From contig CALJMO010000052.1 in assembly GCA_937982065.1 (NCBI GenBank), positions 246,327-310,326 on the forward strand: a DNA stretch of 64,000 nt, read 5' to 3'. This stretch comes from an uncultured Collinsella sp. (lineage in GTDB: Bacteria > Actinomycetota > Coriobacteriia > Coriobacteriales > Coriobacteriaceae). The notes under the pieces were generated by a model. That model saw nothing but the letters and a program-made list of their open reading frames with translations. It was not told the DNA's origin and ran no database searches. Shown here piece after piece: positions 19,394 to 63,977 of this stretch. How positions within the stretch are numbered: the first letter of the stretch is position 1; each line of letters opens with the position of its first letter. A program made the translations under genes and the position numbers.

Positions 19394-21193
19394 TTACTCC
19401 TGCTCGGACTCCTCAGCCTGCTTACGGCTGCGGATGAGGTGCGCCACGCCGATGCACAGCACCGCGCCGCCAGCGATCCAAGTAAAGGTCACGCCGTTAA
19501 GGCCGGTAAGCGGGAGGCCGGTGCCCTTCTGGTCGACAATAGTGAAGCTGAGCTTACCGGTAGATACGGCGGCGGAATCTGTCTTAACGACATCCTTATC
19601 AGCCTTGATGTTGGCGAGCTGCTTATCAGGAGTCACATCGGTACCATCTTGTTTAATAGCACCGCGCGCAATGGTAAACGTAACACCATTAGAGGCCGAA
19701 TTATTATATCCAGGAGCAGGCGTAACCTCTTTGAGGATGTAAGTGCCTTCATCGAGACCGACTACATTAATCTGACCATCGCTGTTTGTCTTGAGCGTGG
19801 CATCCTGGGATTTAATGTGTTTTAAGCCTTTGGCGTCAATGTATTGGTCCTGCGGTGTGCCGTTAATAACTTCCTGCAGCGTGAACTCAACATCCTTAAG
19901 ATTTTTATTTTTCCCGCTCTTGTCGAAATCAGAACCCACCTTGGTGACATCGATGCCATAGGTGTAGTCATAGGCAGAATGATCGACCGTAGCACCGATA
20001 CCGTTGCCGTGCGGGTTGTTAGAGTACTCCAGCTTGACCGTGTTCGTCTGAGCCTTGCCCAGCAGCTTATCCTTGTAGATATCCTTAAGCGTACCATCAT
20101 CATTGCAGATAATTTGGGGATCAAGCATGGCCTCATATTCAACGGTCACTCGAGAGTTGGCCGTCACAGGAATCACATGGCCATCCTTGTCCTTGCAATT
20201 CTTGAGATCGCCAAAAGAAACCGTAAACACGTGGTCCTGCTGTCGATAAGCAGGCTCAAATCCTTCCACAACAGTCGTGTCATCGATCTTAACCGTGACA
20301 TTGGGAGTAGTGCTGTTCTCAGCGTCAGTGTACTTGGGCGTCATGGTCTCAGGCAGTTTATCAGTGAAGGTATATTTATAATTACCGAATGTATTGATAT
20401 TATTCGCAACGGTACCGACAAGCCGATACTTAACGTAATCGCCAATAGCGGAGTCTGCACCCTTGTTGGGAGAAGTGAGAATGTCGCTGCCGCCAAACGT
20501 CCAGTTATCATCGTCAAGGACGGCCTTGTTGACTGTAGGAATGCTGGTCTTCTCTGTAACGATAACGGGGTCGCCACCGACAATAGCGAAAATTGGCGAA
20601 GTGCCGGTATTTGCTTTCTTGCTTGCATCAGTTGATGCGCTAATGCTGCCGCTGTCAGTCAAAAAGAGGTAGTAGCCCGAATTATCAAAGGAGACTGGAG
20701 AATTCGCAACGAACGCAGCACCACTAGCACCATTTGGCTTGACGGGATCGGTGGCCTCGACCAAACTGGCAATCTTATTGAGCAGGGCATCGTTATCAAC
20801 AGCCCCCGCACTCTGGATATTCTCAGCCAGCCAGTTAGCAACGTCCTGCGCAGTCGCGCCAGTTTTGGGAAGTTGCTTTTTCGATGTGCTGTAGTTATCG
20901 CTGCTCGTGATTTCCGAGATTATTTCCGCCTGAATCCCAGTATCCACGGCCCATTTGACATTGGAAACAACCTTTTTGTCTCCCTCGTTTATAACATCCG
21001 CATTGAAAATCCGATAGGCCTTGAACTTGGTGAGTGCATTGTCATCAACCTGCCTAATCGTAATGCTGTTGTCCGAAGTCGTCGCACCCTCAGCAAACGC
21101 CATGGTCACCGGGGCCATGACTCCGCCGAAGCTCAGCGCTGCTGTGAGGCCGGCGGTTACTGCCAGGCGTGCGATGTTCTTGCTCATGCTCAT
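19394..21193 (-). CDS. LPXTG-anchored pilin subunit (Cna-B/isopeptide-type), lower-GC gene
   Basis: Signal peptide; E-box-like 'YILKEVTPAPGY'; C-terminal LPLTG + TM + RSRK sorting signal. Confidence 0.8.
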   Translation of the reverse strand: MSMSKNIARLAVTAGLTAALSFGGVMAPVTMAFAEGATTSDNSITIRQVDDNALTKFKAYRIFNADVINEGDKKVVSNVKWAVDTGIQAEIISEITSSDNYSTSKKQLPKTGATAQDVANWLAENIQSAGAVDNDALLNKIASLVEATDPVKPNGASGAAFVANSPVSFDNSGYYLFLTDSGSISASTDASKKANTGTSPIFAIVGGDPVIVTEKTSIPTVNKAVLDDDNWTFGGSDILTSPNKGADSAIGDYVKYRLVGTVANNINTFGNYKYTFTDKLPETMTPKYTDAENSTTPNVTVKIDDTTVVEGFEPAYRQQDHVFTVSFGDLKNCKDKDGHVIPVTANSRVTVEYEAMLDPQIICNDDGTLKDIYKDKLLGKAQTNTVKLEYSNNPHGNGIGATVDHSAYDYTYGIDVTKVGSDFDKSGKNKNLKDVEFTLQEVINGTPQDQYIDAKGLKHIKSQDATLKTNSDGQINVVGLDEGTYILKEVTPAPGYNNSASNGVTFTIARGAIKQDGTDVTPDKQLANIKADKDVVKTDSAAVSTGKLSFTIVDQKGTGLPLTGLNGVTFTWIAGGAVLCIGVAHLIRSRKQAEESEQE

Positions 21194-21301
21194 CTTCTTT
21201 TCCTCTGCTTTCTGCCCGAATTCCATTTGATCTAAATCTGTCTGTCTGTGTCTTAGCATCTACTTCGCTACGTCTCGCCCCGCTCTCTGTGGGGCTGCCA
21301 G

Positions 21302-49194: not shown

Positions 49195-51522
49195 TTAAGC
49201 GGAAACTGCGGCGGAAGCAGTGTTGGTCTCGTCCTCGTCGGTCCATGCATGCTTGGGCATGGGACGGAAGATCTGGAAGAGCATCGCAACCAGCAGCACG
49301 ATGGCCACAATCGTCCAGATACCAAACTGTCCAAGAACAAGCAAGTTGTAGAACTGGTTGATGAACAGGCCGATCACCCAAGCGAAGGCGCACTCGTAAC
49401 CGATGGCGATCGCAGTCCACTTGCCGGAATCCATCTGGTTGCGGATGGTGCCAATGGCGGCAAAGCACGGAGCGCACAGCAGGTTGAAGGCGCCGAAGGC
49501 AACGCAAGCGCCCATGGTGGGGAACATGCCGGCAAACGCGGTCCACAGGCTCGGGTCGGTCTCGCCCGCGTCGGCGACGGACAGCAGCGAGCCGGCGGTG
49601 GCGACGACGTTCTCCTTGGCGACGAGGCCAGAGACGGACAGTGCTGTTGCCTGCCAGGTGCTAAAGCCGAGCGGGGCGAAGATCCAGGCGATCAGGTTGC
49701 CGAGCATGGCAAGCACGGAGTAGTCCATGAACTCCTCGGGGATGCCGTCCATCGCAGGCAGGAAGCCAAAGGAACCGTTGTAGCTACCAAAGTTGGACAG
49801 GAACCAAACCACAACAGTGGAGGCAAAGATGACCGTGCCGGCCTTCTTGATAAAGGCCCAGCAGCGCTCCCACACGTGCAGCGCCCAAGAGCGGATCGCC
49901 GGGAAGTGGTAGGCAGGAAGCTCCATGACAAACGGTGTCGGGCGACCGGCGAAGAGCTTGGTCTTCTTGAGCATGAGGCCCGAGGCGATGACGGCAAAGA
50001 CGCCCAGGAAGTAGAAGAGCGGGCTGATCCACGCGGCGGTGGTGGAAGAATCGCCGATGATGGAACCCATGAGCAGGGCGATGATCGGCAGCTTGGCACC
50101 ACAGGGAATGAACGTGGTGGTCATGACCGTCATGCGGCGGTCCTTCTCGTTCTCGATGGTCTTGGTAGCCATGACGCCGGGAACGCCGCAGCCTGAGGAC
50201 ACGAGCATGGGGATGAAGGACTTACCGGACAGGCCAAAGCGGCGGAACACGCGGTCCATGATGAAGGCGACGCGGGCCATATAGCCGCAGTCCTCCAAGA
50301 AGGACAGCATGACGAACAGCAGGAACATCTGCGGCACAAAGCCGAAGATGGCGCCCAGGCCGCCGACGATGCCGTCGCAGACCAGCGAATCGACCAGGCC
50401 ACCGTCCTCGGTGCCGCCCGCCACAAGGGCGTCGTGGACCATGGTGGTAATACCCGGGACATAGGGGCCGTACTGTGCCGGGTCGACCGAGTCGGCATTG
50501 TCACCCGCAGCCTCGACGGCCACGTCGTAGGCGTCGCGACCCTGGCCGAGCACATACCAACCGTCGGTACCGAAGAGCTGGTCGTTGGTGAAGTCGGTCA
50601 CCGTGCCGCCCAAGGTAGAAACGGCGATGTAGTACACGCAGAACATGATGACCACAAAGATCGGCAGGCCCAGGATACGGTTGGTAACCACGCGGTCGAT
50701 CTTCTCGGAGGTGCTCATCTTGGCCGGAGCCTTAGTGAGGCACTCATCGATGATGTGCGCGATGACGCCATAGCGCTCACCGGTGATGATGGACTCGGCA
50801 TCGTCGTCGCAGTCCTGCTCGCACTGGGCGACCAGCTCCTCCACGCGAGCAGCCTTCTCCTTAGTGAGGTTGATGAGCTTGCAGGCGTCCGCGTCGCGCT
50901 CGAACAGCTTGACGGCGTAATAGCGGCGCTTGTTAGCGGGAACGCTCGCAGGCAGATTGTTTTCGATGTGGTCAAGAACGTCCTCGATGGAGGAATCGAA
51001 CTTGTGCTCCGGCACCTGGCCCTTGGAAGCAGCAGACTTCTTGACCTGCTCGAACAGCTCCTTGATACCCTTGTTCTTAAGAGCCGAGATCATCATGACC
51101 GGGCAGCCGAGCTTCTTGGAGAGCTTGTCCGTGTCGATCTTGTCGCCGTTCTTCTCGACCAAGTCGGCCATGTTGAGGGCAACAACCACGGGCAGGCCGG
51201 TCTCGATAACCTGAAGCGCCAGGTACAGGTTACGCTCGAGGTTGGTGGCATCGACAACTTGGACGACAACATCGGGCTCGCCGCTCATGAGGTAATCGCG
51301 CGAGCATTGCTCCTCGGGGCTGTAGGGGGAAAGCGAGTAGATGCCAGGGAGGTCCGTGATGGTAACGTTCTTGTCGCTTAGGAGCTTGGCTTCCTTTTTC
51401 TCAACCGTGACGCCGGGCCAGTTGCCAACGTAGCCGTTGGCGCCGGTGATCAGGTTGAAAAGCGTGGTCTTGCCGCAGTTGGGGTTACCCGCCAGCGCGA
51501 CATGGATCTGAGAATCCGCCAT
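49195..51522 (-). CDS. feoB: Ferrous iron transporter B
   Basis: N-terminal G-domain 'GNPNCGKTTLFN'; gate and permease TM domains. Confidence 0.95.
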   Translation of the reverse strand: MADSQIHVALAGNPNCGKTTLFNLITGANGYVGNWPGVTVEKKEAKLLSDKNVTITDLPGIYSLSPYSPEEQCSRDYLMSGEPDVVVQVVDATNLERNLYLALQVIETGLPVVVALNMADLVEKNGDKIDTDKLSKKLGCPVMMISALKNKGIKELFEQVKKSAASKGQVPEHKFDSSIEDVLDHIENNLPASVPANKRRYYAVKLFERDADACKLINLTKEKAARVEELVAQCEQDCDDDAESIITGERYGVIAHIIDECLTKAPAKMSTSEKIDRVVTNRILGLPIFVVIMFCVYYIAVSTLGGTVTDFTNDQLFGTDGWYVLGQGRDAYDVAVEAAGDNADSVDPAQYGPYVPGITTMVHDALVAGGTEDGGLVDSLVCDGIVGGLGAIFGFVPQMFLLFVMLSFLEDCGYMARVAFIMDRVFRRFGLSGKSFIPMLVSSGCGVPGVMATKTIENEKDRRMTVMTTTFIPCGAKLPIIALLMGSIIGDSSTTAAWISPLFYFLGVFAVIASGLMLKKTKLFAGRPTPFVMELPAYHFPAIRSWALHVWERCWAFIKKAGTVIFASTVVVWFLSNFGSYNGSFGFLPAMDGIPEEFMDYSVLAMLGNLIAWIFAPLGFSTWQATALSVSGLVAKENVVATAGSLLSVADAGETDPSLWTAFAGMFPTMGACVAFGAFNLLCAPCFAAIGTIRNQMDSGKWTAIAIGYECAFAWVIGLFINQFYNLLVLGQFGIWTIVAIVLLVAMLFQIFRPMPKHAWTDEDETNTASAAVSA

Positions 51523-51645
51523 TCAATCCTTCTTCCTTGTGTGCCTGCGCTGCTTTCTCCGCGCAGGCTGGATAATGTGCTTCAAAGATGCTGCATTAAG
51601 TTAGAAATACCTAACTTTATCTGCAGAAATATACGCCGCGAGCCC

Positions 51646-51867
51646 TTACTGGACCTCGACGACGGCCGCCTCCTCCTTGCGGATGGAAAGCTCGTAGCCG
51701 CGCACGTTGATCTCGACCGGATCACCGAGCGGTGCAACCTTCACGACCTTGAACGAAGTGCCCTTGATGAGCCCCAAGTCCATAAGGTGGCGGCGAAGCG
51801 CACCCTCACCGTGAAGCTTGACGATGGTAGAGCTCTCGCCCACCTTAACGTCACCCAACGTCTTCAT
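51646..51867 (-). CDS. feoA: FeoA (SH3-like)
   Basis: ~73-aa FeoA fold. Confidence 0.85.
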   Translation of the reverse strand: MKTLGDVKVGESSTIVKLHGEGALRRHLMDLGLIKGTSFKVVKVAPLGDPVEINVRGYELSIRKEEAAVVEVQ

Positions 51868-51906
51868 CCTCTTGTCCCCCTTTCGGTTTTTATGAAATGC
51901 TGCTGA

Positions 51907-52149
51907 CTAACCGACGGTCATGATGTGCATGGCAACCTTGGAATCGATGCCAAAGCGTGCGCCCAGCACCGTGACGATGATATTGGCACCACTCGAGCTC
52001 ACCACGTGGATTTCGTTGCCCTCGACAAAGCCGAGGTCCTTGAGGTGGTGTTTCATGTCCTCATTGCCCTTTACACGAGACACGCGCACGGTTTCGCCCG
52101 CTTTTACCATCGAAAGCGGCATGGCCGGCATCTGCGGTCCGCAAGACAT
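51907..52149 (-). CDS. feoA: FeoA, second copy
   Basis: Paralogous FeoA domain; RBS TAGGAGC. Confidence 0.8.
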   Translation of the reverse strand: MSCGPQMPAMPLSMVKAGETVRVSRVKGNEDMKHHLKDLGFVEGNEIHVVSSSGANIIVTVLGARFGIDSKVAMHIMTVG

Positions 52150-52337: not shown

Positions 52338-52586
52338 TTAGAGCGAGAGATTTCTGATCGATGTGACACAGGAGGCCTCATCCACGCCCGAAACGCGGAA
52401 CACGATGTCCTCGCCACATTCGCCACAGAGTGCCATGAGCCCTATAACGTCGCGGCCATCGACATGACGATTGCCAATCGAAACCGACACGTCACTACGA
52501 TGCTTGGCGATAATGTCATAAAGCAGCGCAACCGGGCGGGCATGCAATCCCAACGGATCTTTAATCGTCTTCGTAAATTCGACCAT
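52338..52586 (-). CDS. HPr-family phosphocarrier protein (standalone; no PTS genes in the window)
   Basis: 'GLHARPVA' active-site His motif; RBS GGGAGGGG. Confidence 0.75.
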   Translation of the reverse strand: MVEFTKTIKDPLGLHARPVALLYDIIAKHRSDVSVSIGNRHVDGRDVIGLMALCGECGEDIVFRVSGVDEASCVTSIRNLSL

Positions 52587-52699
52587 GTCCCCTCCCACGA
52601 CATCGCACATTCGGCCGGCAAACCCAGCCACGTGGTAGCTATTGTAGCGTTAGATGCTTGTTGAGGGCGGGACGGAAATCGCATCCCATTTCGAGCGTC

Positions 52700-54986: not shown

Positions 54987-55622
54987 ATGACTGCACGCCT
55001 CATCGTTATGGATATCGACTCTACGCTCATCAACCAGGAGGTCATCGACCTGTTGGGCGAGGAGGCCGGCGTGGGCAAGCAGGTAGCGCAGATCACCGAG
55101 CGCGCCATGCGCGGCGAGCTTGACTTTAAGCAGGCGCTCGAGGAGCGCGTGGGGCTGCTTGCCGGCCTGGACGAGAGCGTGTTCGAGCGCACCTTTGCGC
55201 GCGTGACGTTTACCCCCGGCGCGCTGGAGCTTGTGCGCTCGGCGCACAGCAAGGGCTGGAAGGTCGGCGTGGTAAGCGGCGGCTTCCACGAGGTCGCCGA
55301 TAAGATCGTGGCCGCTGCGGGCATCGATTTTTGTCTAGCGAACCGCCTGGAGGTCGTAGACGGCAAGCTCACCGGTAAGTTGGCTGCCGACATCGTGACC
55401 AAGGAATCCAAGCTCATCCAGCTGCTGGATTGGGCAGTTGAGTGCGGCGTCGATATGGCCCACACCGTCGCGATCGGCGACGGCGCCAACGACATCCCCA
55501 TGATTCAGGCCGCGGGCACGGGCATCGCGTTTTGCGCCAAGCCCAAGACGCGCGAGGCCGCCCCGTTTGCCATCGACGAGCGCAATCTGATGCTCGCCAT
55601 GGACATCATCCTGCGCGACTAG
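54987..55622 (+). CDS. serB: Phosphoserine phosphatase (HAD-IB)
   Basis: 'VMDIDSTLI' motif I, 'GDGANDIPM' motif IV. Confidence 0.8.
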   Translation: MTARLIVMDIDSTLINQEVIDLLGEEAGVGKQVAQITERAMRGELDFKQALEERVGLLAGLDESVFERTFARVTFTPGALELVRSAHSKGWKVGVVSGGFHEVADKIVAAAGIDFCLANRLEVVDGKLTGKLAADIVTKESKLIQLLDWAVECGVDMAHTVAIGDGANDIPMIQAAGTGIAFCAKPKTREAAPFAIDERNLMLAMDIILRD

Positions 55623-55738
55623 TCAATCCGTCTAACAACAGAATCAATTCCTCTATGTCTAGTTTCCGAACGATTTTGTTCTAATGTTCGGAAACTACCC
55701 TTCTCGTGCTAGACTTTGCACCGTCGAAGGGAACATAT

Positions 55739-56521
55739 ATGGATAAGCGAGATCTTGAGCAATTGCTGAGCGATGTTGCCGACGGAACAGTCACCCCGGC
55801 AGTCGCCCTCACGCGCATCCAGACGGCGCCAACCGCCAATCTGGGTTTTGCGCAGCTCGATCTTTCACGCGGGGTGCGCCAGGGAGCCGGCGAGGTTGTC
55901 TACGGCGCCGGTAAAACCGCCGAGCAGATTGCCGCCATTATCAAAGCATTACTCAATGCCGGCCAGGTGCGCATCCTGGTCACGCGCCTGGACGCCGAAA
56001 AGGCAGCCCGCGCCTCGAAGCTCCTCGGCAACGGCATCGACCTGGGATATGTCCCAGACGCACAGCTCGCCCTCGTGGGCGGCAAGCCCTCCCCTACCGG
56101 CAACGGACGCATCGTTGTCGCCTGCGCCGGTACGAGCGACCTGCCCGTCGCCGAGGAAGCCGCGTTGACGGCCGAATTCTATGGCAACGAGGTCGACCGC
56201 CTCTACGACGTAGGTGTCGCAGGCCTGCACCGCCTGCTCGCGCATGCCGAGGAACTTGCCCAGGCGCAGGTGGTCATCGCCATCGCCGGCATGGAAGGCG
56301 CCCTGGCGAGCGTTATCGGCGGTCTGGTGAGCTGTCCGGTCATCGCCGTTCCCACCAGCGTGGGCTACGGCGCAAATTTTGGAGGCGTAGCCGCGCTGCT
56401 CGCCATGCTCAACTCCTGCGCCAGCGGCGTATCGGTCGTCAATATCGATAACGGCTTTGGTGCCGCCTACCAGGCAAGTCTTATCAATCATCTGAGCGCC
56501 GGCACATCCTGCGCCCGTTAA
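55739..56521 (+). CDS. larB: LarB (PurE-like pyridinium-3,5-biscarboxylic acid mononucleotide synthase)
   Basis: PurE/AIRC-like 'VVACAGTSDLPVAEEA' segment, ~260 aa with an N-terminal extension. Confidence 0.7.
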   Translation: MDKRDLEQLLSDVADGTVTPAVALTRIQTAPTANLGFAQLDLSRGVRQGAGEVVYGAGKTAEQIAAIIKALLNAGQVRILVTRLDAEKAARASKLLGNGIDLGYVPDAQLALVGGKPSPTGNGRIVVACAGTSDLPVAEEAALTAEFYGNEVDRLYDVGVAGLHRLLAHAEELAQAQVVIAIAGMEGALASVIGGLVSCPVIAVPTSVGYGANFGGVAALLAMLNSCASGVSVVNIDNGFGAAYQASLINHLSAGTSCAR

Positions 56522-56531
56522 GGAGCATTCC

Positions 56532-57455
56532 ATGTCCAACCATCAGCACACGCTTATCATCGACGGCACTTCGGGCATCAGCGGCGATATGACCGTCGCG
56601 GCCCTGCTCGACTTGGGCGCCAGCGAGGAGCACCTGCGCGAACAGCTCGCCACGCTGCCGGTCGACGGCTTTTCGATCGCTGTAACGCGCGTAAACAAGC
56701 ATGGCATCGACGCCTGCGATTTCGACGTCCAGCTTGCAGAGGGCCTCGAGAACCATGATCACGATATGGCCTGGCTCTACGGCAACGAAGCAGCTGTCGA
56801 GCATATGCATGAGCATGAGCATGAGCACCACCATCATGGCCATGGCGAGCACGAACACGAGCACACACACGACCATGACCATGAGGCCCACGGCCATGGT
56901 CACGAGGGTCACCATCACGCCCACCACCATCACCACCGTTCTTTGGCGGACGTCACCGCCATCATCGACGGCTCACAGCTAAGCGATGGCGCCAAGCGTC
57001 GTGCGCTCGCCATCTTTACCGCACTTGCCGCCGCCGAGGCCAAGGCCCACGGCAAAACGCCCGAAACCGTCATGTTCCACGAGGTGGGCGCCGTCGACTC
57101 CATCGTCGACGTCTGCTCTGTCGCCATCTGCCTCGATGACCTGGGTATTGAGGACATCGTTGTCGAGTCGCTTTCCGAGGGCCACGGCACCATCCGCTGC
57201 GCCCACGGCCTCATGCCCATTCCCGTCCCCGCCGTTGTCAACCTATGCCAGGCGGGCAATATCGCCCTCACGCCCGTACCGGTCGCCGGCGAGCTCGTGA
57301 CGCCCACGGGCGCCGCCATCGTCGCCGCGCTGCGCACGTCCGAGCACCTGCCGGCACGCTACCGCATCGAAGCCGTCGGCTACGGCGCCGGCAAGCGTCC
57401 CTACGAGGGTTGCTCCGGCACGCTCCGTTGCCTGCTTGTTCAAGTGGATGCATAA
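56532..57455 (+). CDS. larC: LarC N-terminal domain (DUF111-type nickel insertase) with a 60-aa His-rich insert; no LarC C-terminal (CTP) domain
   Basis: 'DGTSGISGDMTVAALLDLG' N-terminal signature; HEHEHEHHHHGHGEHEHEHTHDHDHEAHGHGHEGHHHAHHHHH. Confidence 0.7.
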   Translation: MSNHQHTLIIDGTSGISGDMTVAALLDLGASEEHLREQLATLPVDGFSIAVTRVNKHGIDACDFDVQLAEGLENHDHDMAWLYGNEAAVEHMHEHEHEHHHHGHGEHEHEHTHDHDHEAHGHGHEGHHHAHHHHHRSLADVTAIIDGSQLSDGAKRRALAIFTALAAAEAKAHGKTPETVMFHEVGAVDSIVDVCSVAICLDDLGIEDIVVESLSEGHGTIRCAHGLMPIPVPAVVNLCQAGNIALTPVPVAGELVTPTGAAIVAALRTSEHLPARYRIEAVGYGAGKRPYEGCSGTLRCLLVQVDA

Positions 57456-57457
57456 CC

Positions 57458-57997
57458 ATGGATGCCCGCAAAGAAAAAAGCCGCGCTGCCATCGTTGCGG
57501 CGTTCTCCGAGCTGCTACGCGAAGTGGACTACGGCAAGATCACTGTCGGCGACATCATCGCTCGCGCCCACGTAGGCCGCGCGACATTCTACGGCCTCTT
57601 TAAGAGCAAAGACGACCTACTGTCCGAGCTCGTGAGCGACATCTGCACCCACGCCCTCGACGACGATGGTACGCCGCTCGACGACCCACTCGTGCAAGTC
57701 GAGCATATCCTCAACAACCTCTGGGAGCGCCGTCAGGGCGTACGAGCCCTCGTAGCCGGTGCCGGCTCACGCGTCTTCGCCGACTGCTTACGCAAGACCA
57801 TCATGTCACGAGCAGCCGAAACCGTCCCTACCGACCCAAACGGCCCCTCCGCCACCATGGACCGAAGCTTCCTACTACACCACATAGCCTCAAGCTTCGT
57901 AGCCACCGTCCAATGGTGGGCCTGGCACAACTTCCAAGCAAACAAAGCCGACGTAGCCAAAGACTACCTCTCAGCCATAAAACCCCTCTTCAACTAA
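57458..57997 (+). CDS. TetR/AcrR-family transcriptional regulator
   Basis: HTH 'ITVGDIIARAHVGRATFYGLFKSKDDLL'; starts 2 nt after the larC stop. Confidence 0.85.
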   Translation: MDARKEKSRAAIVAAFSELLREVDYGKITVGDIIARAHVGRATFYGLFKSKDDLLSELVSDICTHALDDDGTPLDDPLVQVEHILNNLWERRQGVRALVAGAGSRVFADCLRKTIMSRAAETVPTDPNGPSATMDRSFLLHHIASSFVATVQWWAWHNFQANKADVAKDYLSAIKPLFN

Positions 57998-58191
57998 GTA
58001 ACTATCCCTTCCCAAAGTGGGAGCCCCATCCCAAAGCGCGAATCCCATTCCAAAGTTCCGCTCCGACTCAAGACGCCACGCATCCCAAAGTGCCACTCGC
58101 ACCTCAAAGCGCCTAACAACAAAGTGCCCACCACATCCAAATTCAGATATATATGTTGGTTGCTTGTTCGAACGCAACTGGATTCCCGCAG

Positions 58192-58316
58192 GGTCCGGCA
58201 TAGGTTAACTTTCCGCCGCACTCCGCAGGACGCAAGAAGCTCCCGCCGCACGAAGTGCGCAGCGGGAGCTTCTTGCATGTCCGAGGACGCGGCGGAAAGT
58301 TAACCTATGCCGGACC
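58192..58316. repeat. ~125-bp nested imperfect palindrome (family E; core 'ccgcaggacgcaagaagc…cgcacgaagtgcg…gcttcttgcatgtccgaggacg')
   Basis: Core shared with 61249-61367. Confidence 0.65.
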
Positions 58317-58341
58317 CGGGCGTTATATCAATTGTCTTGGA

Positions 58342-59073
58342 CTAGAACATGCCCAAGAAACCATGCACAAACAGCGCAGCCAGAGCGGCACCGACAAACG
58401 GCGCGATGCCAGGAACAAGCAGGCCGTACTTCCAGTTGTTGTCAGCCTTGTTCTTGATCGGCAGCACCTGATAGGCCATGCGAGGACCAAGGTCACGAGC
58501 CTGGTTCATGGCGAAGCCGGTGATACCGCCCATGCCCATGCCAACAGCCCAAACGATCAGACCGACGCAGATGGCGAGCATCAGGACGTTCTCGCCAGCA
58601 CGGTTAGCAGCAGCAAGGATGGCGCTGATGAACACAAAAGTGCAGATAGCCTCGCAGAAGAAGTTGCGGGCATAGTTCGTACCCTCGGTGGTGGGGTTGG
58701 TCGAGAAGATATTGCGCTGGGCAATGGGATCGACGACACCATCGGAAGCCTTGAACTCATCGGCATACATAAGCCACGCGATCACGGCACCCGCAAAGCC
58801 GCCGAGCATATCGGCAATCATGAAGGGGATGCAGCTGCTCCACGGCACCAGGCCGACGATGCACTGGGCAAGCACCATGGCGGGGTTCATGCACACGGCG
58901 CCGCCAAAGATAAACAGAGCAACCGAGATGCCAAAAGACCAAGTGGTGATGGCAAACATATGACCAGAGCCCTGATACTTGGTGCCCTTGAGCACGGTAT
59001 CGCAGTGCACGCCCACGCCAAAGATGATCATGAGGGCCGTTGCGCCGAATTCGCAGAGGAGTTTGGTAAGCAT
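58342..59073 (-). CDS. MIP-family channel (aquaglyceroporin-like; LarD-like position next to larA); second NPA box reads NQA
   Basis: 6-TM profile; 'CMNPAMV' and 'AMNQARDLGPR'. Confidence 0.75.
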   Translation of the reverse strand: MLTKLLCEFGATALMIIFGVGVHCDTVLKGTKYQGSGHMFAITTWSFGISVALFIFGGAVCMNPAMVLAQCIVGLVPWSSCIPFMIADMLGGFAGAVIAWLMYADEFKASDGVVDPIAQRNIFSTNPTTEGTNYARNFFCEAICTFVFISAILAAANRAGENVLMLAICVGLIVWAVGMGMGGITGFAMNQARDLGPRMAYQVLPIKNKADNNWKYGLLVPGIAPFVGAALAALFVHGFLGMF

Positions 59074-59122
59074 AAAACCTTATCTTTCTTGTCGGTTATA
59101 AACGATTCGTTTAGGCCGCGTA

Positions 59123-60400
59123 CTAGTGCTGAGCGACGACAACGCCCAGGCCATCGGGAATGACGGCCACCTTGGCATCGGCACCCTTCATCTCAAAGGC
59201 GAGCTTGAGCGCCTCATCGAGGGTGTTAACCGGCGTCATGTGCATATCCTTGATCATCTGGTGATCGCACAGGTCGGTAACCATGATCACAGGGTGATGC
59301 GCCAGGATGCGGGCAAAGATCTGGCTCGTCCACTGGTCGGGCAGGGTCTCGTCCTTAGGACGGTCGATGCAGGCGCGCTCAAACTCTGCCGGATCATTGT
59401 CGGCGATGTTGTGATAGAAGCCCTCGCCACCGTGACCGTCGGCACAACCGGCGACATCGATGATCACGCCGCCCTCGGGAAGTGTGGCCTCTGCAGAGCA
59501 CATGCCCTTCACGGCCTGATAGATGTTCTGGTCGAGCGGGTAGCCGCCGTTGGTGGTAATGGCAATCTCGCACTCGACGGGCTCAACGCCGGCAAGGCTC
59601 TTCACGAACTCGCAGCCAGCCTCGTGCGCCTTGTGGATGTCGCCGGCAAAGGAGCCGATGACCTCGTGCTTGCCGTTGAGCACCACGTTGAGCACAAAGG
59701 CAAGGTGAGCCATCTCGGCAGCGGCAAACATGTCCTCGCTCACGTGGTTGTGGCACAGGTTGCCGGCACGCGAGTGGGAATCATTCACAAACTGACCGTT
59801 GTGGTTGTACATGATGGTCTTGTAGCTGGCGATACCAGGCAGAACGGACTTGCGGCTACCAGAGAAACCGGCAAAGAAGTGCGGCTCAATAAAGCCCTCG
59901 GCAAGCAGCAGATCGCAATCGGCAGCAATCTTGTTGATGATGCACTCGCCGCCAGAAGGCAGGGTGCCGATCTTTTTCATCATGCTGTCATCGGTCGCGA
60001 CGTGCATAACGATTTCCTCGTTGGCAACAATCTCCTCGCCGTACTTGTTGACGAGCTCCTCGTGCGTCGAAGGACGATGCATACCCGTAGCAACCAAAAT
60101 ACGCACGCGAGCCTCGGGCGCAGCGGAATGGATGTGATGCAGCAGAATAGGCATCGTCACACGCGAGGGAACGGGGCGCGTATGATCGGAGCTAATGATG
60201 ACAATATCCTTCTTGCCAGCACAAAGCTCCTCGAGCGAAGGCGAGCCATAAGGGTTGGCAAGTGACTCCTCTACCAGCTCTTCCTGTGATTTCGTGGTCT
60301 TAAACTCGTTTTGATGACCTTCCATCACACCCGCGAAGTTCTTATCCTCGAGCTCCAGATGCAACGTCTTGTGGTCAAACGGCAGTTCACATTCAAACAA
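59123..60400 (-). CDS. larA: LarA-family nickel-pincer-cofactor-dependent 2-hydroxyacid racemase/epimerase (lactate racemase homolog), TTG start
   Basis: 'ELPFDHKTLHLELEDKNF…IVIISSDHTRPVP' LarA N-terminal pattern; RBS AAAGGAAGAGGG 9 nt before TTG; ~426 aa. Confidence 0.75.
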   Translation of the reverse strand: MFECELPFDHKTLHLELEDKNFAGVMEGHQNEFKTTKSQEELVEESLANPYGSPSLEELCAGKKDIVIISSDHTRPVPSRVTMPILLHHIHSAAPEARVRILVATGMHRPSTHEELVNKYGEEIVANEEIVMHVATDDSMMKKIGTLPSGGECIINKIAADCDLLLAEGFIEPHFFAGFSGSRKSVLPGIASYKTIMYNHNGQFVNDSHSRAGNLCHNHVSEDMFAAAEMAHLAFVLNVVLNGKHEVIGSFAGDIHKAHEAGCEFVKSLAGVEPVECEIAITTNGGYPLDQNIYQAVKGMCSAEATLPEGGVIIDVAGCADGHGGEGFYHNIADNDPAEFERACIDRPKDETLPDQWTSQIFARILAHHPVIMVTDLCDHQMIKDMHMTPVNTLDEALKLAFEMKGADAKVAVIPDGLGVVVAQH

Positions 60401-60980
60401 TGACGAGCGCCCTCTTCCTTTCAACTGACACATTAGATAAACCGTTGGAAGGATACGCCGCTCACCGAAAAACACCACCGTCCACCGACTCATTAACACA
60501 ACGTTCATATTTGACCCACAACAAAACAGCCGCGACCCCAAACGGGACCGCGGCCGCCTGTCAAAGACACTACAGACAGGATGACTTACGCAGCGCCGAG
60601 GCAAACATCTACCCCGAGACGTACGCACGTAAGCCATTTTGCATAAATGCGTTAATTAATTGCATAAAATGGCGCATGGATTTCTAGCCGTAACAGGGTA
60701 GTGCCCTCCGGAGCGTGCATTTTTGCGAGTATTCAGCATCGCGAGATAAGATTTTGGTGTCAAAAGTCTTTCAAAAAGTAGATAGTCCTCATGACTCGAC
60801 CCATCTGAATAGCATGCGGCGAGAAACCAGCCATATATGAATATCACCAAAGCCCAATCGTCGTGCAAAAGCATCAACAGGGGCCGCAAACGTCACCCAT
60901 AGCCTTATGCACCAATCTTTGGCTGCTGAAAACTCCTTTTTTTGCACGTCGCCCCAAGCACCACCCTCACCCAGCGGCTG

Positions 60981-61064
60981 ATCCGCCGAAGACCGGACAT
61001 CGCAGGGCCCGCCATTAGTTTACTTTTAGGCACACTCCGCAGGACGCAAGAAGCCCTCGCCGCA
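60981..61064. repeat. Family E repeat, partial copy (direct repeat of 61220-61303)
   Basis: ~84-bp near-identical direct repeat. Confidence 0.7.
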
Positions 61065-61219
61065 CTCCGCATTGGACGCGAAGCGCACTTTAATCCCTTC
61101 AGCCCCAATCCCTGAAGACCGAGGACGAAGGGACCCGACGGGTTTCCCTCTGAATGCATTCCGCAGCACGAAGCCCCTTCCAAACGCGCGAAGCGCGCCA
61201 TTAATTCCCCCAGCCAGTA

Positions 61220-61367
61220 ATCCGCCGAAGACCGGACATCGCAGGGCCCGCCATTAGTTTACCTTTAGGCACACTCCGCAGGACGCAAGAAGCCCTCGCC
61301 GCACGAAGTGCGCAGCGAGGGCTTCTTGCATGTCCGAGGACGTGCCTAAAAGTAAACTAATGGCGGA
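61220..61367. repeat. Family E repeat, full copy with ~120-bp palindrome (ccgccattagtttacctttaggcac … gtgcctaaaagtaaactaatggcgg)
   Basis: Read directly. Confidence 0.7.
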
Positions 61368-61391
61368 CCCGGACGACTACAGGGCTATCGA

Positions 61392-63977
61392 TTACCCCGT
61401 GTTCTGCAGTCCTGCCGAGACGCCGGTCACAGTCGAAAGAATCAGGCTCGTGTACTCGGCCTTCTTCTCCTCGGCCATCTCGTCCTGGTTCATACGCACC
61501 TCGCGAAGGGCACGGACCTGGGCGATGGACAGAGCGTCGACGTAGGGGTTACGCACGCGAACGGCGCAACCGAGCACGCGGCGGCGCTGCAGTGGCCACT
61601 CGTCACCGACGATGGCAAGGACCCACTTACGCGTGAGCTGCATCTCGGTAAAGACCTTCTCGGACAGATCCTGGCGATCGCCCAGGTGCAGATACATCTT
61701 GGCGATGCGCTGGTCGGTCTTGGCGATCGACATCTCGATGTTGTCGATGAACGTGCGGAAGAACGGCCACTCCTGGTAGGCAGCCTTGAGCTGGTCAAGA
61801 TCGCCAAGCTGCTCGCAGGCGGTGCCCAGACCGTACCAAGCGGCCAGGTTAATGCGCGCCTGGCTCCAGCTGAAGATCCACGGGATGGTACGCAGGTCGT
61901 CGAGCGACTTGGCACCCAAGCCGCGCTTGGCAGGACGCGAGCCGATCGGCAGCAGACCGACCTCGGTCAGCGGCGTCACGGTCGAGAACCACGGTGTAAA
62001 GTCCTCGGTGTTCAGCAGGTCCAGATAGCGCTCGTGGCTTGCGGCGTTGAGCTTCTCGGCCATATCCCAGAACTTCTGAGTGGTCTCGGTGTTAGTCTTC
62101 TCGACACTCGGGGCCGACTGCAAAAGCGTTGCAGCAGCAACGGACTCAACATGGCGCTGAGCCAGCGTGCGGTTGCCGTAACGGGCAAAGATGACCTCGC
62201 CCTGCTCGGTGAGCTTAAAGAAGCAGTTGACCGAACCCTTGGGCTGCGCCAGCACGGCCTTGTTGGCCGGGCCGCCGCCACGGCCCACGGCACCGCCGCG
62301 ACCGTGCATGAGCACCAGGTCGATATCGTTCTTCTCGGCCCACTTGGCGATGCGCTCCTGCGCGGAGTGCAGTGCGAGCATGGCCGTGGTAGGACCGGCG
62401 TCCTTGGAGGAGTCGGAATAGCCCAGCATAACCTCCATGCGGCGGTTGGTCTGGGCAAGGCGCTTTTGCACCACGGGCAGCGTAAGCATCTGGTCGAGCA
62501 CGTCAACGCAGCCCTCGAGGTCCTCGAGCTGCTCGAACAGCGGGATCACGTCGAGCTCGGGAACGTCTTCCTCGTGTGCGAAGGACAGGTGGGCCAGCTC
62601 AAAGACGTCGGCCACATGCTGGGCACTCTTGGTAAACGAGATGATGTAGCGGTGCGCCATCTTCTTGCCGTAGCGCTTTTGGATGGAACCGATGGCACGG
62701 AAGGTGTCGATGACCTCGCGCGTCATGGGCTGCAGGTCACCATGGATACCGTTCTCGTGGATATCCTTGAGGGCGCGGGCGTGCACCACGGAGTGCTGAC
62801 GGAACTCCATCTCGACCATGTGGAAGCCGAAGGACTCGACCTGCCAGATGATGGTCTGGACCGGGCCGTAGGCAGCACGGACGGCACCGCAGGCAGCAAG
62901 CGAACGCTGGACGACGCGCAGGTCATCCAGGAACTCGTCGGCGCTGTGGTACATGGTGTCGGTGATACGGCGCACGGTGGCGTTCAGACGGTCGGCCATG
63001 ACGAGCATGACGGCGCGATGCGGCTCGTGCTCGGAGATCAGCTCGGCGCGGGCCGTGTACTGGGTGCTCATCTCGACCTGATGGTTCCACAGGTTGATGA
63101 GCTCGGCCGACGGCTTGCTGTAGGTGGCCTCGAGCGTGAGGTTGCGGCCGATGCGACGGCACTTGTCCTCGAGCTTGAGCACCATGTGGGTGAAGTACTT
63201 GGCGGCGACCTCACGGCTCACCTTGGCGGTGACGTTGGGGTTACCGTCGCGGTCGGAACCGATCCAGCTGCCGGGATGGAAGAACGCCGGGCACAGCGGC
63301 GGCACGGTACCGGCCTTGTCGCCCAGCACCCAGTCGTCAAAACGACGATAGATGACGGGGATAACGTCGAACAGCGTGTTATCAAAGATGTCGATGATGG
63401 TATCGGCTTCCTCGACCGGCGTGGGCTTCTTGAGCGCGATGGGGCTCGTACGCACCAGGGCGTCGATCTCCTGCAGCATATGGCGCTCGTTCTCCACCAG
63501 GTCGGAGCCGCCCAAACGCGGACGCTCCTCCAGCAGGTTGGAGATACGGCGAATCTTGCCCTCGACGGCCTTACGACGGGCCTCGGTGGGATGTGCGGTA
63601 AAGACAGGGTGGAACTCGAGCTTGCCGAGCAGCTCATTGGCACCCTCGACGCCCATCTCGTTTACCAACTGGTGATAGGCGACGGTGAGTTCGTTGGCGG
63701 GATCGACCTCGGTATCGGTCGATGCGCCGGCCTCGCGCTCGCGCAGCTGCGCCACACGGTAGTTCTCCTCCGACAGGTTTGCCAAGTGGAAGAAGCTCGT
63801 AAAGGCGCGAACGATGACCTGCTGCTTATCAAGCGGCAGGCTGTCAATCAGATCGACGACTTCGCGAAACGCCACGGCGGTGGGCTCGTCGGCAGTGGGC
63901 ACGCCCTGTTCGTCAACGGACTCGTCGGCAGCGCGGCTACCGGGGTTGCCAGCATTGGCCACAATCTCGGCTGTCAA
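61392..63977 (-). CDS. ppc: Phosphoenolpyruvate carboxylase (N-terminus may extend to the window edge)
   Basis: PEPC catalytic motifs ('VMLGYSDSSKDAG', C-terminal '…AGLQNTG'). Confidence 0.9.
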   Translation of the reverse strand: MTAEIVANAGNPGSRAADESVDEQGVPTADEPTAVAFREVVDLIDSLPLDKQQVIVRAFTSFFHLANLSEENYRVAQLREREAGASTDTEVDPANELTVAYHQLVNEMGVEGANELLGKLEFHPVFTAHPTEARRKAVEGKIRRISNLLEERPRLGGSDLVENERHMLQEIDALVRTSPIALKKPTPVEEADTIIDIFDNTLFDVIPVIYRRFDDWVLGDKAGTVPPLCPAFFHPGSWIGSDRDGNPNVTAKVSREVAAKYFTHMVLKLEDKCRRIGRNLTLEATYSKPSAELINLWNHQVEMSTQYTARAELISEHEPHRAVMLVMADRLNATVRRITDTMYHSADEFLDDLRVVQRSLAACGAVRAAYGPVQTIIWQVESFGFHMVEMEFRQHSVVHARALKDIHENGIHGDLQPMTREVIDTFRAIGSIQKRYGKKMAHRYIISFTKSAQHVADVFELAHLSFAHEEDVPELDVIPLFEQLEDLEGCVDVLDQMLTLPVVQKRLAQTNRRMEVMLGYSDSSKDAGPTTAMLALHSAQERIAKWAEKNDIDLVLMHGRGGAVGRGGGPANKAVLAQPKGSVNCFFKLTEQGEVIFARYGNRTLAQRHVESVAAATLLQSAPSVEKTNTETTQKFWDMAEKLNAASHERYLDLLNTEDFTPWFSTVTPLTEVGLLPIGSRPAKRGLGAKSLDDLRTIPWIFSWSQARINLAAWYGLGTACEQLGDLDQLKAAYQEWPFFRTFIDNIEMSIAKTDQRIAKMYLHLGDRQDLSEKVFTEMQLTRKWVLAIVGDEWPLQRRRVLGCAVRVRNPYVDALSIAQVRALREVRMNQDEMAEEKKAEYTSLILSTVTGVSAGLQNTG

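What the first reader, a model, noticed from the sequence alone, without database searches (positions are those of the whole stretch)
55739..60660. Rearranged lar cluster: larA homolog + MIP channel opposite larB + His-rich LarC N-domain only + TetR; no LarC CTP domain or LarE in the window
In Lactobacillus plantarum the operon is larABC1C2DE under the Crp-type regulator LarR. Here a LarA-family enzyme (TTG start, 426 aa) and a LarD-like aquaglyceroporin (second NPA box reads NQA) are transcribed on the minus strand. larB and a LarC N-terminal domain with a 60-aa poly-His/Glu insert, fused in an operon with a TetR regulator, sit on the plus strand. The LarC C-terminal CTP-hydrolysing domain and the sulfur-inserting LarE are absent from the window. 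LarA-family members are now known to act on several 2-hydroxyacids, so the substrate here is open. The AT-rich larA promoter carries a TTGCATAAA(A)TG direct repeat at 60640-60680.
Basis: partly seen in the sequence, partly recalled or inferred. Interest (0 to 1): 0.7.

Follow-up and report, generated by a model that had tools for sequence, protein, structure and literature searches.

The report
Collinsella lactate racemase locus, truncated LarC
This is the lactate racemase gene cluster of the gut bacterium Collinsella, intact and under selection, but its nickel-insertion protein LarC lacks the CTP-using half and no sulfur-inserting LarE lies nearby, so either those parts are encoded elsewhere or the nickel cofactor is made in an unusual way.

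Summary
The window is Collinsella (aerofaciens group) DNA. Plus strand: larB, a LarC that stops at the LarC1/LarC2 linker, and a tetR starting 3 nt after that stop. Minus strand: larA then larD, converging on them. LarA is not of open substrate. It passes NCBI's lactate racemase equivalog cut-off (599 vs 460 bits), is about 70% identical to L. plantarum LarA, and keeps His108, His174, Lys184 and His200. LarC1 keeps all seven acidic-pocket residues. No LarC2 or LarE is found in the window or within 10 kb of the cluster in 86 Collinsella contigs. All five genes are intact there, with dN/dS of 0.006 to 0.10, so the system is in use. A sister lineage (72% identical LarC1) has full-length LarC, and relatives have larE next to larB-larC. 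Unlinked larE is common: 14 of 16 well-flanked metagenomic larE loci have no larB or larC nearby. A free-standing larC2-larE pair exists in a Firmicute contig. I could not scan a whole Collinsella genome, so whether larE and larC2 lie elsewhere stays open. Three indirect searches found no Collinsella-like candidate, but each has a sensitivity gap. Verdict: a genus-wide variant of a known system, of moderate interest.

The parts
55663..55694 (.). Inverted repeat TTTCCGAAC-N14-GTTCGGAAA in the serB-larB gap, 45-76 nt upstream of the larB ATG. Candidate operator of the co-transcribed TetR (inferred).
   Evidence: It is unique in the window, with 0 expected by chance. The arms are invariant in 35 distinct Collinsella sequences, while the spacer and flanks vary.
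55739..56521 (+). larB, pyridinium-3,5-biscarboxylic acid mononucleotide synthase (first step of nickel-pincer cofactor synthesis), 260 aa.
   Evidence: NF033503 LarB equivalog 286 bits against cut-off 175. Full-length match to L. plantarum LarB structure 7MJ0, E = 2e-77. Intact at 260 aa in 57 of 57 Collinsella loci, dN/dS 0.099.
56532..57455 (+). larC1-only gene, 307 aa: the nickel-binding and nickel-insertion domain of LarC, ending inside the LarC1-LarC2 linker. No CTP-binding LarC2 domain follows.
   Evidence: Pfam PF01969 positions 1-234 of 375. The alignment to M. thermoacetica LarC (12bi) keeps D15, R71, E104, E119, D124, D128, E187 and H108, H118, H160, with H72 changed to S and H116 to M. 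All close homologues are 285-333 aa. dN/dS is 0.097.
56751..56939 (+). His/Glu-rich tract of LarC1 (residues 74-136; 28 His in 63 aa), built of short imperfect tandem repeats and polymorphic in length between strains.
   Evidence: Residue counts and tandem repeats. LarC1 is 298-315 aa in 57 loci and 285-333 aa in the protein database.
57458..57997 (+). tetR-family regulator, 179 aa, translationally coupled to larC1 and lying where the linker and LarC2 coding sequence lie in relatives.
   Evidence: TetR_N E = 1e-9. Best PDB match is 3KKC, E = 2e-18. The ATG is 3 nt after the larC1 stop. It is 179 aa in all 65 loci where tblastn found it, dN/dS 0.10.
58187..58322 (.). Hairpin-forming palindromic repeat element of about 130 nt in the convergent tetR/larD gap. 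Probably a two-way terminator and/or a mobile REP/MITE-like element.
   Evidence: Inverted arms of 29 nt (100% complementary) and 18 nt. RNA fold -115.8 kcal/mol, z = -14.8. A second copy lies at 61240-61375 and a half copy at 60967-61065.
58342..59073 (-). larD, a lactic acid channel of the MIP (aquaglyceroporin) family, 243 aa, 49 nt downstream of larA.
   Evidence: NF043012 LarD equivalog 418.8 bits against cut-off 390. 62% identical to the LarD of L. paracasei plasmid pBD-II. dN/dS 0.056.
59123..60400 (-). larA, nickel-pincer-dependent lactate racemase, 425 aa, TTG start.
   Evidence: NF033504 599 bits against cut-off 460. Lar_N plus LarA_C domains. E = 2e-179 to L. plantarum LarA structures, with His108, His174, Lys184 and His200 conserved. 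Intact in 86 of 86 loci, dN/dS 0.006 at dS 0.14.
60401..60640 (-). Conserved 5' leader of larA of about 240 nt, with a terminator-like hairpin plus U-run at about 60516-60556. Possible attenuator; function unknown.
   Evidence: The leader fold has z = -3.8 and shows the hairpin GGCGGCCGCGGUCCC-GUUU-GGGGUCGCGGCUG followed by UUUUGUUGU. It is highly conserved in 44 loci. No Rfam family matches.
60639..60668 (.). Direct repeat TTGCATAAA(A)TG, two copies with starts 21 nt apart, in the AT-rich region upstream of the larA leader. Candidate regulator site or promoter element.
   Evidence: These are the only two copies in 64 kb, with 0.16 expected. The core TTATGCAA is largely conserved across Collinsella loci.

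Best explanation
**What it is.** This is the working lactate racemase locus of Collinsella, a gut genus of the Coriobacteriia (Actinomycetota).

**Roles of the genes.**
- LarA interconverts D- and L-lactate using the nickel-pincer nucleotide cofactor.
- LarD, transcribed just after larA, lets lactic acid cross the membrane.
- The convergent operon larB-larC1-tetR supplies the first cofactor step (LarB carboxylates and hydrolyses NaAD).
- It also supplies the nickel-binding and insertion half of the last step (LarC1) and a TetR regulator. The TetR probably represses its own operon through the conserved palindrome upstream of larB.

**How it arose.** Relatives carry larE next to larB and a full-length larC. 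The Collinsella lineage kept only larB-larC1. The coding sequence was cut exactly at the LarC1-LarC2 linker, and tetR now starts there. larE is no longer upstream.

**The missing steps.** Sulfur insertion by LarE and CTP-dependent CMPylation by LarC2 are most likely carried out by unlinked genes elsewhere in the chromosome. LarC would then work as two separate polypeptides.

**Shown here:** gene identities, the truncation point, conserved active-site residues, genus-wide conservation, purifying selection and local absence of larE and larC2.

**Inferred:** that unlinked larE and larC2 exist, the TetR operator assignment, the direction of the rearrangement, and that lactate is racemised in vivo.
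For: - **Gene identities.** LarA, LarB and LarD each exceed NCBI's curated equivalog cut-offs.
- **LarA residues.** LarA keeps His108, His174, Lys184 and His200.
- **LarC1 residues.** LarC1 keeps all seven acidic-pocket residues whose alanine substitution markedly reduces LarC activity, plus three of the five conserved His.
- **Conservation.** The five genes are intact in 57-86 Collinsella contigs: LarB 57/57, LarA 86/86, LarD 83 of 85. dN/dS is 0.006 for LarA, 0.056 for LarD, 0.099 for LarB, 0.097 for LarC1 and 0.104 for TetR. The flanking aspS, serB and ppc give about 0.03.
- **Abundance.** The exact LarC1 protein is indexed in 423 blocks of the assembly collection.
- **Ancestral state.** The sister sequence P0122 (72% identical LarC1) is a full-length LarC with LarC2. 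The loci L088, L089 and L091-L093 show larE divergent from larB-larC full length.
- **Unlinked larE is usual.** 14 of 16 well-flanked metagenomic larE loci have no larB, larC or larA nearby.
- **Split LarC has precedent.** L. paracasei/plantarum encode LarC1 and LarC2 as separate ORFs. A 51% GC Firmicute contig carrying PolC encodes a free-standing LarC2 directly followed by LarE, with no larB or larC1 within 10 kb.
Against: - **No whole-genome scan.** No Collinsella larE or larC2 was actually found, and I could not scan a whole Collinsella genome.
- **LarC2 search.** A search with the sister lineage's LarC2 domain returned only clusters of 70 members or fewer. Collinsella LarC1 clusters hold 26,068 and 13,891 members.
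- **LarE protein search.** The 120 best relatives of an Atopobiaceae-type LarE included no Collinsella-sized cluster.
- **LarE metagenome scan.** None of 80 metagenomic larE loci, some from human gut assemblies, has a Collinsella-like tetranucleotide signature. Their correlation with the window is 0.89 or less, against 0.97-0.99 for true Collinsella loci.
- **Limits of these negatives.** needs several shared 5-mers and missed even L. plantarum LarC2. The one search list stops at 59% identity, while LarE at this distance is expected near 50-55%.
- **Published linker data.** In M. thermoacetica LarC, deleting or altering the LarC1-LarC2 linker drops activity below 10% (PMC13510736). That argues against easy function of unlinked halves.
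- **Parsimony.** Both ends of larB-larC1 were trimmed, which is explained more simply by loss than by two separate relocations.
Confidence: 0.55

Rival explanations
1. Non-canonical cofactor maturation. Collinsella has no LarC2 at all. LarC1 inserts nickel without the CTP-dependent CMPylation step, or after activation by an unrelated nucleotidyltransferase. LarE may be present elsewhere or be replaced by another PP-loop sulfur transferase.
For: - LarC1 is cut exactly at the domain boundary and stays under purifying selection with an intact acidic pocket.
- No LarC2 lies in any frame of the window or of 86 Collinsella loci.
- No abundant free-standing LarC2 related to the sister lineage's domain exists in a database where Collinsella LarC1 has tens of thousands of copies.
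- No Collinsella-like larE contig appears among 80 metagenomic larE loci.
- Both sides of larB-larC1 were trimmed relative to the arrangement in relatives.
Against: - CTP binding by LarC2 and the covalent linker are reported as needed for LarC activity in the two enzymes studied (PMC13510736).
- Every negative search here has a known sensitivity gap.
- Free-standing larC2-larE pairs exist elsewhere, so an unlinked copy is a simpler explanation.
Confidence: 0.25
2. LarC1 here is only a nickel store or chaperone. L. plantarum also makes free LarC1. A second, complete set larE-larB-larC elsewhere in the genome would do the actual cofactor synthesis.
For: - The His-rich tract is very large (28 His in 63 aa) and its length varies freely between strains, as expected for a metal-buffering segment.
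- Cofactor genes are often dispersed.
Against: - The local LarB and LarC1 are the Coriobacteriia-type copies: 65% and about 55-62% identical to L088, and LarC1 72% to P0122. They look like the native set rather than an extra one.
- The catalytic pocket residues of LarC1, not only the His residues, are conserved.
- No second Collinsella LarC showed up among the 120 best LarC1 relatives, although a copy with lower identity would not be listed.
Confidence: 0.1
3. A decaying remnant. After loss of larE and LarC2 the pathway is dead, and the remaining genes are on their way to becoming pseudogenes or have been put to another use.
For: Two of the four functions known to be needed are missing locally.
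Against: - All five genes are intact in 57-86 contigs from many Collinsella species-level groups.
- dN/dS is 0.006-0.10 at dS of 0.14-0.30. The LarA value is biased downward, because loci were picked by LarA identity, but LarB and LarC1 were not selected that way.
- The larA leader and the operator-like palindrome are also conserved.
Confidence: 0.05

Closest known systems
Lactiplantibacillus plantarum / Lacticaseibacillus paracasei lar operon (larA-larB-larC1-larC2-larD-larE with LarR). Reference copy used here: plasmid pBD-II, locus L087.
   Same: - The protein families match: LarA about 70% identical, LarD 62%, LarB 58%, LarC1 36-38%.
- LarA keeps the catalytic His pair, the Lys tether and the His nickel ligand.
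- LarC1 is a separate ORF ending at the same point as the L. plantarum larC1 ORF.
- The second NPA box of LarD is non-canonical in both (NLA there, NQA here).
   Different: - No larC2 ORF follows larC1, so no frameshift can restore a full LarC, and no larE follows larD.
- larA-larD form their own unit, convergent with larB-larC1.
- A TetR replaces the Crp-type LarR.
- The His-rich tract is about twice as long.
Coriobacteriia (Atopobiaceae-like) cofactor clusters: larE divergent from larB and a full-length larC (loci L088, L089, L091-L093; protein P0122).
   Same: These hold the closest LarB (60-65%) and LarC1 (about 55-72%) relatives. They have the same larB-then-larC order and a large His-rich tract in LarC1.
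   Different: - Their LarC is one polypeptide of 487-555 aa with linker and LarC2.
- larE sits directly upstream of larB.
- No larA or larD lies within 8-10 kb.
- In Collinsella, serB lies upstream of larB and tetR follows LarC1.
Free-standing larC2-larE pair in a Firmicute gut metagenome contig (L094/L095).
   Same: It shows that LarC2 can be a separate protein (181 aa) encoded away from larB and larC1. That is the mirror image of the Collinsella larB-larC1 unit.
   Different: It comes from a different phylum (51% GC, PolC present). It is only 48% identical to the Coriobacteriia LarC2. Its own LarC1 partner was not located, and no equivalent pair was found for Collinsella.

Membership tests
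LarA, nickel-pincer-dependent lactate racemase (NCBIfam NF033504 equivalog) | Whole-protein score above the curated equivalog cut-off, and higher than for the sister LarA-homologue families. | tested here: met
   599.2 bits against cut-off 460. The malate racemase models score 340 (cut-off 500) and 262 (cut-off 462), and LarAH10 scores 282 (cut-off 540). All three fail.
LarA, nickel-pincer-dependent lactate racemase (NCBIfam NF033504 equivalog) | Catalytic His108 and His174, cofactor-tethering Lys184 and nickel ligand His200 (L. plantarum numbering; roles as stated in PMC11770544 and PMC9283937). | tested here: met
   All four align identically to L. plantarum LarA (6C1W/5HUQ) over residues 3-423, E = 2e-179.
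LarA, nickel-pincer-dependent lactate racemase (NCBIfam NF033504 equivalog) | Racemisation of D/L-lactate by the nickel-pincer holoenzyme. | not testable with these tools
   This needs an enzyme assay. Purifying selection (dN/dS 0.006) and the adjacent LarD are indirect support only.
LarB (NF033503) | Equivalog-level score and full-length similarity to the solved LarB. | tested here: met
   285.9 bits against cut-off 175. Residues 8-254 align to 7MJ0 residues 6-248.
LarC, CTP-dependent nickel cyclometallase | LarC1 domain with the His cluster and the acidic pocket (D15, R71, E104, E119, D124, D128, E187 in M. thermoacetica numbering). | tested here: met
   All seven pocket residues are conserved, as are H108, H118 and H160. 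H72 is S and H116 is M, within a tract of 28 His.
LarC, CTP-dependent nickel cyclometallase | LarC2 CTP-binding domain on the same polypeptide, or on an adjacent ORF joined by frameshifting. | tested here: not met
   Pfam coverage stops at position 234 of 375. The protein ends within the linker and tetR starts 3 nt later. The LarC2 HMM finds nothing in any frame of the window or of 86 Collinsella loci.
LarC, CTP-dependent nickel cyclometallase | A LarC2 domain somewhere in the same genome. | tested here: inconclusive
   The search with the sister lineage's LarC2 found no cluster of Collinsella-like abundance. That search misses sequences sharing few 5-mers. No whole genome was available.
LarE, ATP-dependent sulfur insertase | A PP-loop (SGGxDS) LarE gene in the cluster. 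| tested here: not met
   tblastn and the LarE HMM are negative in the window and in 86 loci. Annotated neighbours to +10 kb on the right, and 10 kb beyond the left edge, hold none.
LarE, ATP-dependent sulfur insertase | A LarE gene elsewhere in the genome. | tested here: inconclusive
Unlinked larE is the common case.
LarD lactic acid channel (NF043012) | Equivalog-level score within the MIP family. | tested here: met
   418.8 bits against cut-off 390, with Pfam MIP E = 2e-28.
Canonical L. plantarum-type lar operon | Gene order larA-B-C1-C2-D-E on one strand under the Crp-type regulator LarR. | tested here: not met
   There are two convergent units, larB-larC1-tetR and larA-larD. Neither larC2 nor larE is present, and the only regulator in the cluster is a TetR. 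No systematic search for a Crp/Fnr regulator was made across the rest of the window.

The most novel reading that the evidence does not exclude
Collinsella makes an active lactate racemase with LarB and a LarC1-only protein and has no LarC2 anywhere in the genome. Nickel would then be inserted into the pincer precursor without the CTP-dependent CMPylation that is currently thought obligatory, or after activation by an unrelated enzyme. In the extreme version LarE is also absent, and sulfur comes from another PP-loop enzyme or the pincer is sulfur-free.
Probability: 0.2. Interest if true: 0.8.

Novelty: new variant of a known kind. Interest (0 to 1): 0.4.

Why it matters
Collinsella is one of the commonest Actinomycetota of the human gut, and lactate stereochemistry matters for cross-feeding to butyrate producers.

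The current model for the nickel-pincer field rests on a 2026 cryo-EM and mutagenesis study (PMC13510736). In that model LarC2 CMPylates the precursor and hands it through an interdomain cleft to LarC1, and the covalent linker is critical.

Here a whole genus keeps, under selection, a LarC cut exactly at that linker.
- If LarC2 is encoded elsewhere, this is a natural test of whether the two halves can work unlinked.
- If LarC2 is absent, the CTP step is dispensable or replaced.

Either answer is cheap to obtain. If both genes simply sit elsewhere in the chromosome, the locus is an ordinary dispersed arrangement.

Tried and rejected
1. **Wrong first guess of organism.** I guessed Bifidobacterium from GC content and gene content. 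The genome scan showed Collinsella.
2. **Genome scan swamped by Collinsella.** It returned only Collinsella contigs at about 100% identity. That was useful for conservation but gave no diverse clusters and left no scan for LarE.
3. **LarC1 protein search.** It was likewise swamped by Collinsella variants. The longer hits (369-471 aa) are a duplication, frameshift read-throughs or a lost stop, not real full-length LarC.
4. **LarC2 search.** A search with the sister lineage's LarC2 found no Collinsella-sized cluster. It proved blind to sequences sharing few 5-mers.
5. **LarE search.** A search with the closest available LarE stopped at 59% identity. That is above the 50-55% expected for Collinsella.
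6. **Cluster-member look-up.** It gave almost no organism names.
8. **Literature.** Nothing was found on lar genes in Collinsella. Supplements of three lar papers either do not mention Collinsella or are not held. Two older key papers are not held.
9. **Other negatives.** Plasmid megablast of the locus found no match. Rfam on the locus gave only spurious miRNA hits on the palindromes. The sigma-70 and terminator scan gave nothing above chance.
10. **LarC1-TetR fusion rejected.** The genes are in different frames, and the single fused database entry differs from the rest at the stop.
11. **LarC2 remnant rejected.** The six-frame HMM finds no trace of LarC2 in the 344-nt gap after tetR.

Full report
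**What is in the sequence.**

| Gene | Coordinates (strand) | Size | Key evidence |
|---|---|---|---|
| serB | 54987-55622 (+) | 211 aa | TIGR00338 |
| larB | 55739-56521 (+) | 260 aa | NF033503, 286 bits vs cut-off 175 |
| larC1 | 56532-57455 (+) | 307 aa | Pfam Ni_insertion positions 1-234 of 375 only |
| tetR | 57458-57997 (+) | 179 aa | ATG 3 nt after the larC1 TAA |
| larD | 58342-59073 (-) | 243 aa | NF043012, 419 bits vs cut-off 390 |
| larA | 59123-60400 (-) | 425 aa | NF033504, 599 bits vs cut-off 460 |
| ppc | 61392-63977 (-) | 861 aa ORF | PEP carboxylase |

The two lar units therefore converge on a 344-nt gap.

The TTG start of larA is supported by three things. A Shine-Dalgarno sequence lies upstream. 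The alignment to L. plantarum LarA starts at residue 3. A 1-nt indel in some relatives breaks the longer upstream ORF.

LarD has NPA at residues 63-65 and NQA at 190-192. The L. plantarum-type LarD has NLA at the second box, so a non-canonical second box is normal for this subfamily.

**Organism and spread.**

The exact LarC1 protein is indexed in 423 blocks of the public assembly collection.

The best 80 are nearly all labelled Collinsella aerofaciens or Collinsella sp., and three carry generic or Firmicutes labels. LarA is about 100% identical in all of them.

The same order aspS / serB-larB-larC1-tetR / larD-larA / ppc-hisS is seen in all six fully annotated contigs. Upstream gene content varies between them.

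**Local absence of LarC2 and LarE.**

I took a canonical larB-larC1-larC2-larD-larE set from L. paracasei plasmid pBD-II.
- tblastn of its LarC2 and LarE against the window gave nothing better than E = 0.14.
The targets were all six-frame ORFs of the window and of 86 Collinsella loci, each reaching up to 10 kb either side of the cluster.
- These HMMs hit only the three non-Collinsella control loci. The best Collinsella E-value was about 4.
- On the right of the window come ppc, hisS, an MFS transporter and an M20 peptidase.
- Ten kilobases beyond the left edge of one contig hold a prophage, not lar genes.

**LarA is a lactate racemase, not an open-substrate homologue.**
- It passes the lactate racemase equivalog cut-off.
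- It fails the malate racemase and LarAH10 models.
- It matches L. plantarum LarA structures at E = 2e-179.
- His108, His174, Lys184 and His200 are all conserved.
- It is followed by an equivalog-level LarD.

**LarC is cut at the domain boundary.**

According to the 2026 cryo-EM study of M. thermoacetica LarC (PMC13510736):
- LarC2 binds CTP and CMPylates the precursor.
- LarC1 carries the His cluster and an acidic pocket where nickel is inserted.
- A 13-residue linker (residues 236-248) joins them, and altering it drops activity below 10%.

Aligned to that protein (PDB 12bi), the Collinsella protein ends at about residue 240, inside the linker.
- It keeps D15, R71, E104, E119, D124, D128 and E187.
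- It keeps H108, H118 and H160. H72 is Ser and H116 is Met.
- These sit within a tract holding 28 His in 63 residues.

All 120 best database relatives are Collinsella proteins of 285-333 aa that differ mainly in the length of this tract. The few longer ones are assembly or frameshift artefacts.

A library clustered at 50% identity shows that the nearest non-Collinsella sequence, P0122, is 72% identical. It is a 487-aa full-length LarC with a clear LarC2 domain. The truncation is thus a derived, genus-level state.

**Ancestral arrangement.**

Contigs carrying the closest LarB (60-65%) and LarC1 (about 55-62%) show larE divergent from larB, followed by a full-length larC. No larA lies within 8-10 kb. 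These are L088, L089 and L091-L093, with 60-66% GC.

In Collinsella both ends of this unit are changed. serB lies where larE would be, and tetR lies where the linker and LarC2 would be.

LarA (about 70%) and LarD (62%) are closer to the Lactobacillaceae proteins than LarC1 is (36-38%). This suggests a mosaic origin, which is an inference.

GC3 of the five lar-region genes is 0.68-0.78, against 0.83-0.84 for aspS, serB and ppc. The larD-larA unit is bracketed by copies of a 130-nt palindromic element.

**The system is under selection.**

| Gene | Intact in Collinsella loci | dN/dS |
|---|---|---|
| LarB | 57/57 (260 aa) | 0.099 |
| LarC1 | 57 of 65 (298-315 aa; the other 8 could not be scored) | 0.097 |
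| TetR | 65/65 | 0.104 |
| LarD | 83/85 | 0.056 |
| LarA | 86/86 | 0.006 |
| AspRS, SerB, PEPC (controls) | not applicable | 0.028, 0.032, 0.031 |

These are Nei-Gojobori ratios, with dS between 0.14 and 0.30.

The LarA figure is biased low, because loci were chosen by LarA similarity. The others were not chosen that way. A dead pathway is therefore very unlikely.

**Is larE or larC2 elsewhere in the genome?**

Three indirect tests all came back negative, and each has a gap.
- **LarC2 search.** A search with P0122's LarC2 domain returned 100 short LarC2-like proteins. None belongs to a cluster of more than 70 members, while Collinsella LarC1 clusters hold 26,068 and 13,891. The search needs several shared 5-mers and missed even L. 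plantarum LarC2.
- **LarE protein search.** A search with L088's LarE listed 120 relatives down to 59% identity, none of Collinsella-like abundance. LarE diverges faster than LarB. Between L088 and L089, LarE is 53% identical where LarB is 65%. A Collinsella LarE would therefore fall below the listing.
- **Metagenome scan.** A scan with a LarE profile gave 80 loci, several from human gut assemblies. None has a Collinsella-like tetranucleotide profile. Their correlation with the window is 0.89 or less, against 0.97-0.99 for true Collinsella loci.

**Context that lowers the surprise.**
- Of 16 metagenomic larE loci with at least 7 kb on both sides, 14 have no larB, larC or larA nearby. An unlinked larE is the rule rather than the exception.
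- Split LarC also recurs. L. plantarum-type operons split it by frameshift.
- A 51% GC contig carrying PolC encodes a free-standing 181-aa LarC2 directly followed by LarE and then DHFR. No larB or larC1 lies within 10 kb.

**Regulatory anatomy.**
- **Upstream of larB.** A palindrome TTTCCGAAC-N14-GTTCGGAAA lies at 55663-55694. It is unique in the window. Its arms are invariant in 35 distinct Collinsella sequences, while the spacer and flanks vary. This fits an operator for the co-transcribed TetR, which is an inference.
- **Upstream of larA.** A conserved leader of about 240 nt contains a terminator-like hairpin plus U-run. The leader fold has z = -3.8, and no Rfam family matches.
- **Beyond the leader.** Its two copies are the only ones in 64 kb.

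**Verdict.**

It is wrong about an open substrate, and it over-weights the missing larE.

The best-supported reading (about 0.55) is a working, selected lactate racemase locus whose missing cofactor steps are encoded elsewhere, with LarC working as separate halves. A serious rival (about 0.25) is that LarC2 is truly absent and nickel insertion runs without the canonical CTP step.

No paper in the searchable library mentions lar genes in Collinsella or a LarC1-only system. I file it as a new variant of a known kind, of moderate interest. One whole-genome HMM scan would settle the open question.

Noticed in passing
window 58187-58322, 61240-61375, and a half copy at 60967-61065: A family of palindromic repeat elements of about 130 nt, with 29-nt outer and 18-nt inner inverted arms. 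The RNA fold is -115.8 kcal/mol, z = -14.8. Copies bracket the larD-larA unit. The larA-ppc gap differs between Collinsella contigs (374, 660 or 899 nt), as if such elements come and go. Rfam's only hits on them are spurious miRNA models.
   Followed up: partly
window 60401-60640 (minus strand): The 5' leader of larA is nearly invariant across Collinsella contigs. It contains a strong hairpin followed by UUUUGUUGU at about 60516-60556, which looks like a transcription attenuator. No known RNA family matches.
   Followed up: partly
window 55663-55694: A perfect 9-nt inverted repeat with a 14-nt spacer lies upstream of larB. The arms are invariant in 35 distinct sequences while the spacer varies. 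It is a candidate TetR operator.
   Followed up: partly
window 56751-56939: The His-rich tract of LarC1 is encoded by short imperfect tandem repeats (periods 6, 12 and 21). Its length varies between strains, giving proteins of 285-333 aa, while the rest of the protein is conserved.
   Followed up: yes
L094 10001-11887 and L095 (gut metagenome contigs, 51% GC): A free-standing LarC2 (181 aa) is immediately followed by a LarE-like PP-loop protein (279 aa) and by DHFR. The contig carries PolC, so it is from a Firmicute, and it has no larB or larC1 within 10 kb. LarC can evidently be split into unlinked halves in nature.
   Followed up: partly
L096-L175 (metagenomic larE loci): In 14 of 16 larE loci with at least 7 kb of flank on both sides, no larB, larC or larA is nearby. 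Only 12 of all 80 loci have a LarC2 hit. Some (L153, L154) show overlapping LarC1 and LarC2 ORFs like the L. plantarum frameshift arrangement.
   Followed up: partly
L088 4381-5253 and L089 5385-6203: The LarE proteins of the Coriobacteriia relatives carry the CxxC plus distant Cys motif. PMC9283937 links this motif to a [4Fe-4S]-dependent, non-sacrificial LarE, unlike the single-Cys L. plantarum enzyme.
   Followed up: no
L090 14285-22076 (contig region beyond the left edge of the window): In one Collinsella contig, a prophage lies just past the P-type ATPase gene that corresponds to window 2751-4826. It carries tail genes, an amidase and a reverse transcriptase (RVT_1, 396 aa), so it may hold a diversity-generating retroelement.
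   Followed up: no
window 49195-52149: feoB and two feoA genes (ferrous iron uptake) lie upstream of aspS, followed at 52338-52631 by an HPr-like gene. In one Collinsella contig (L005) this block is replaced by a lacZ-lacI unit, so the left flank of the lar region is variable.
   Followed up: no
window 16600-21300: This stretch has lower GC (about 0.54) than the rest of the window, and its ORFs have weak GC3 bias. It may be a foreign insertion. It was not examined.
   Followed up: no
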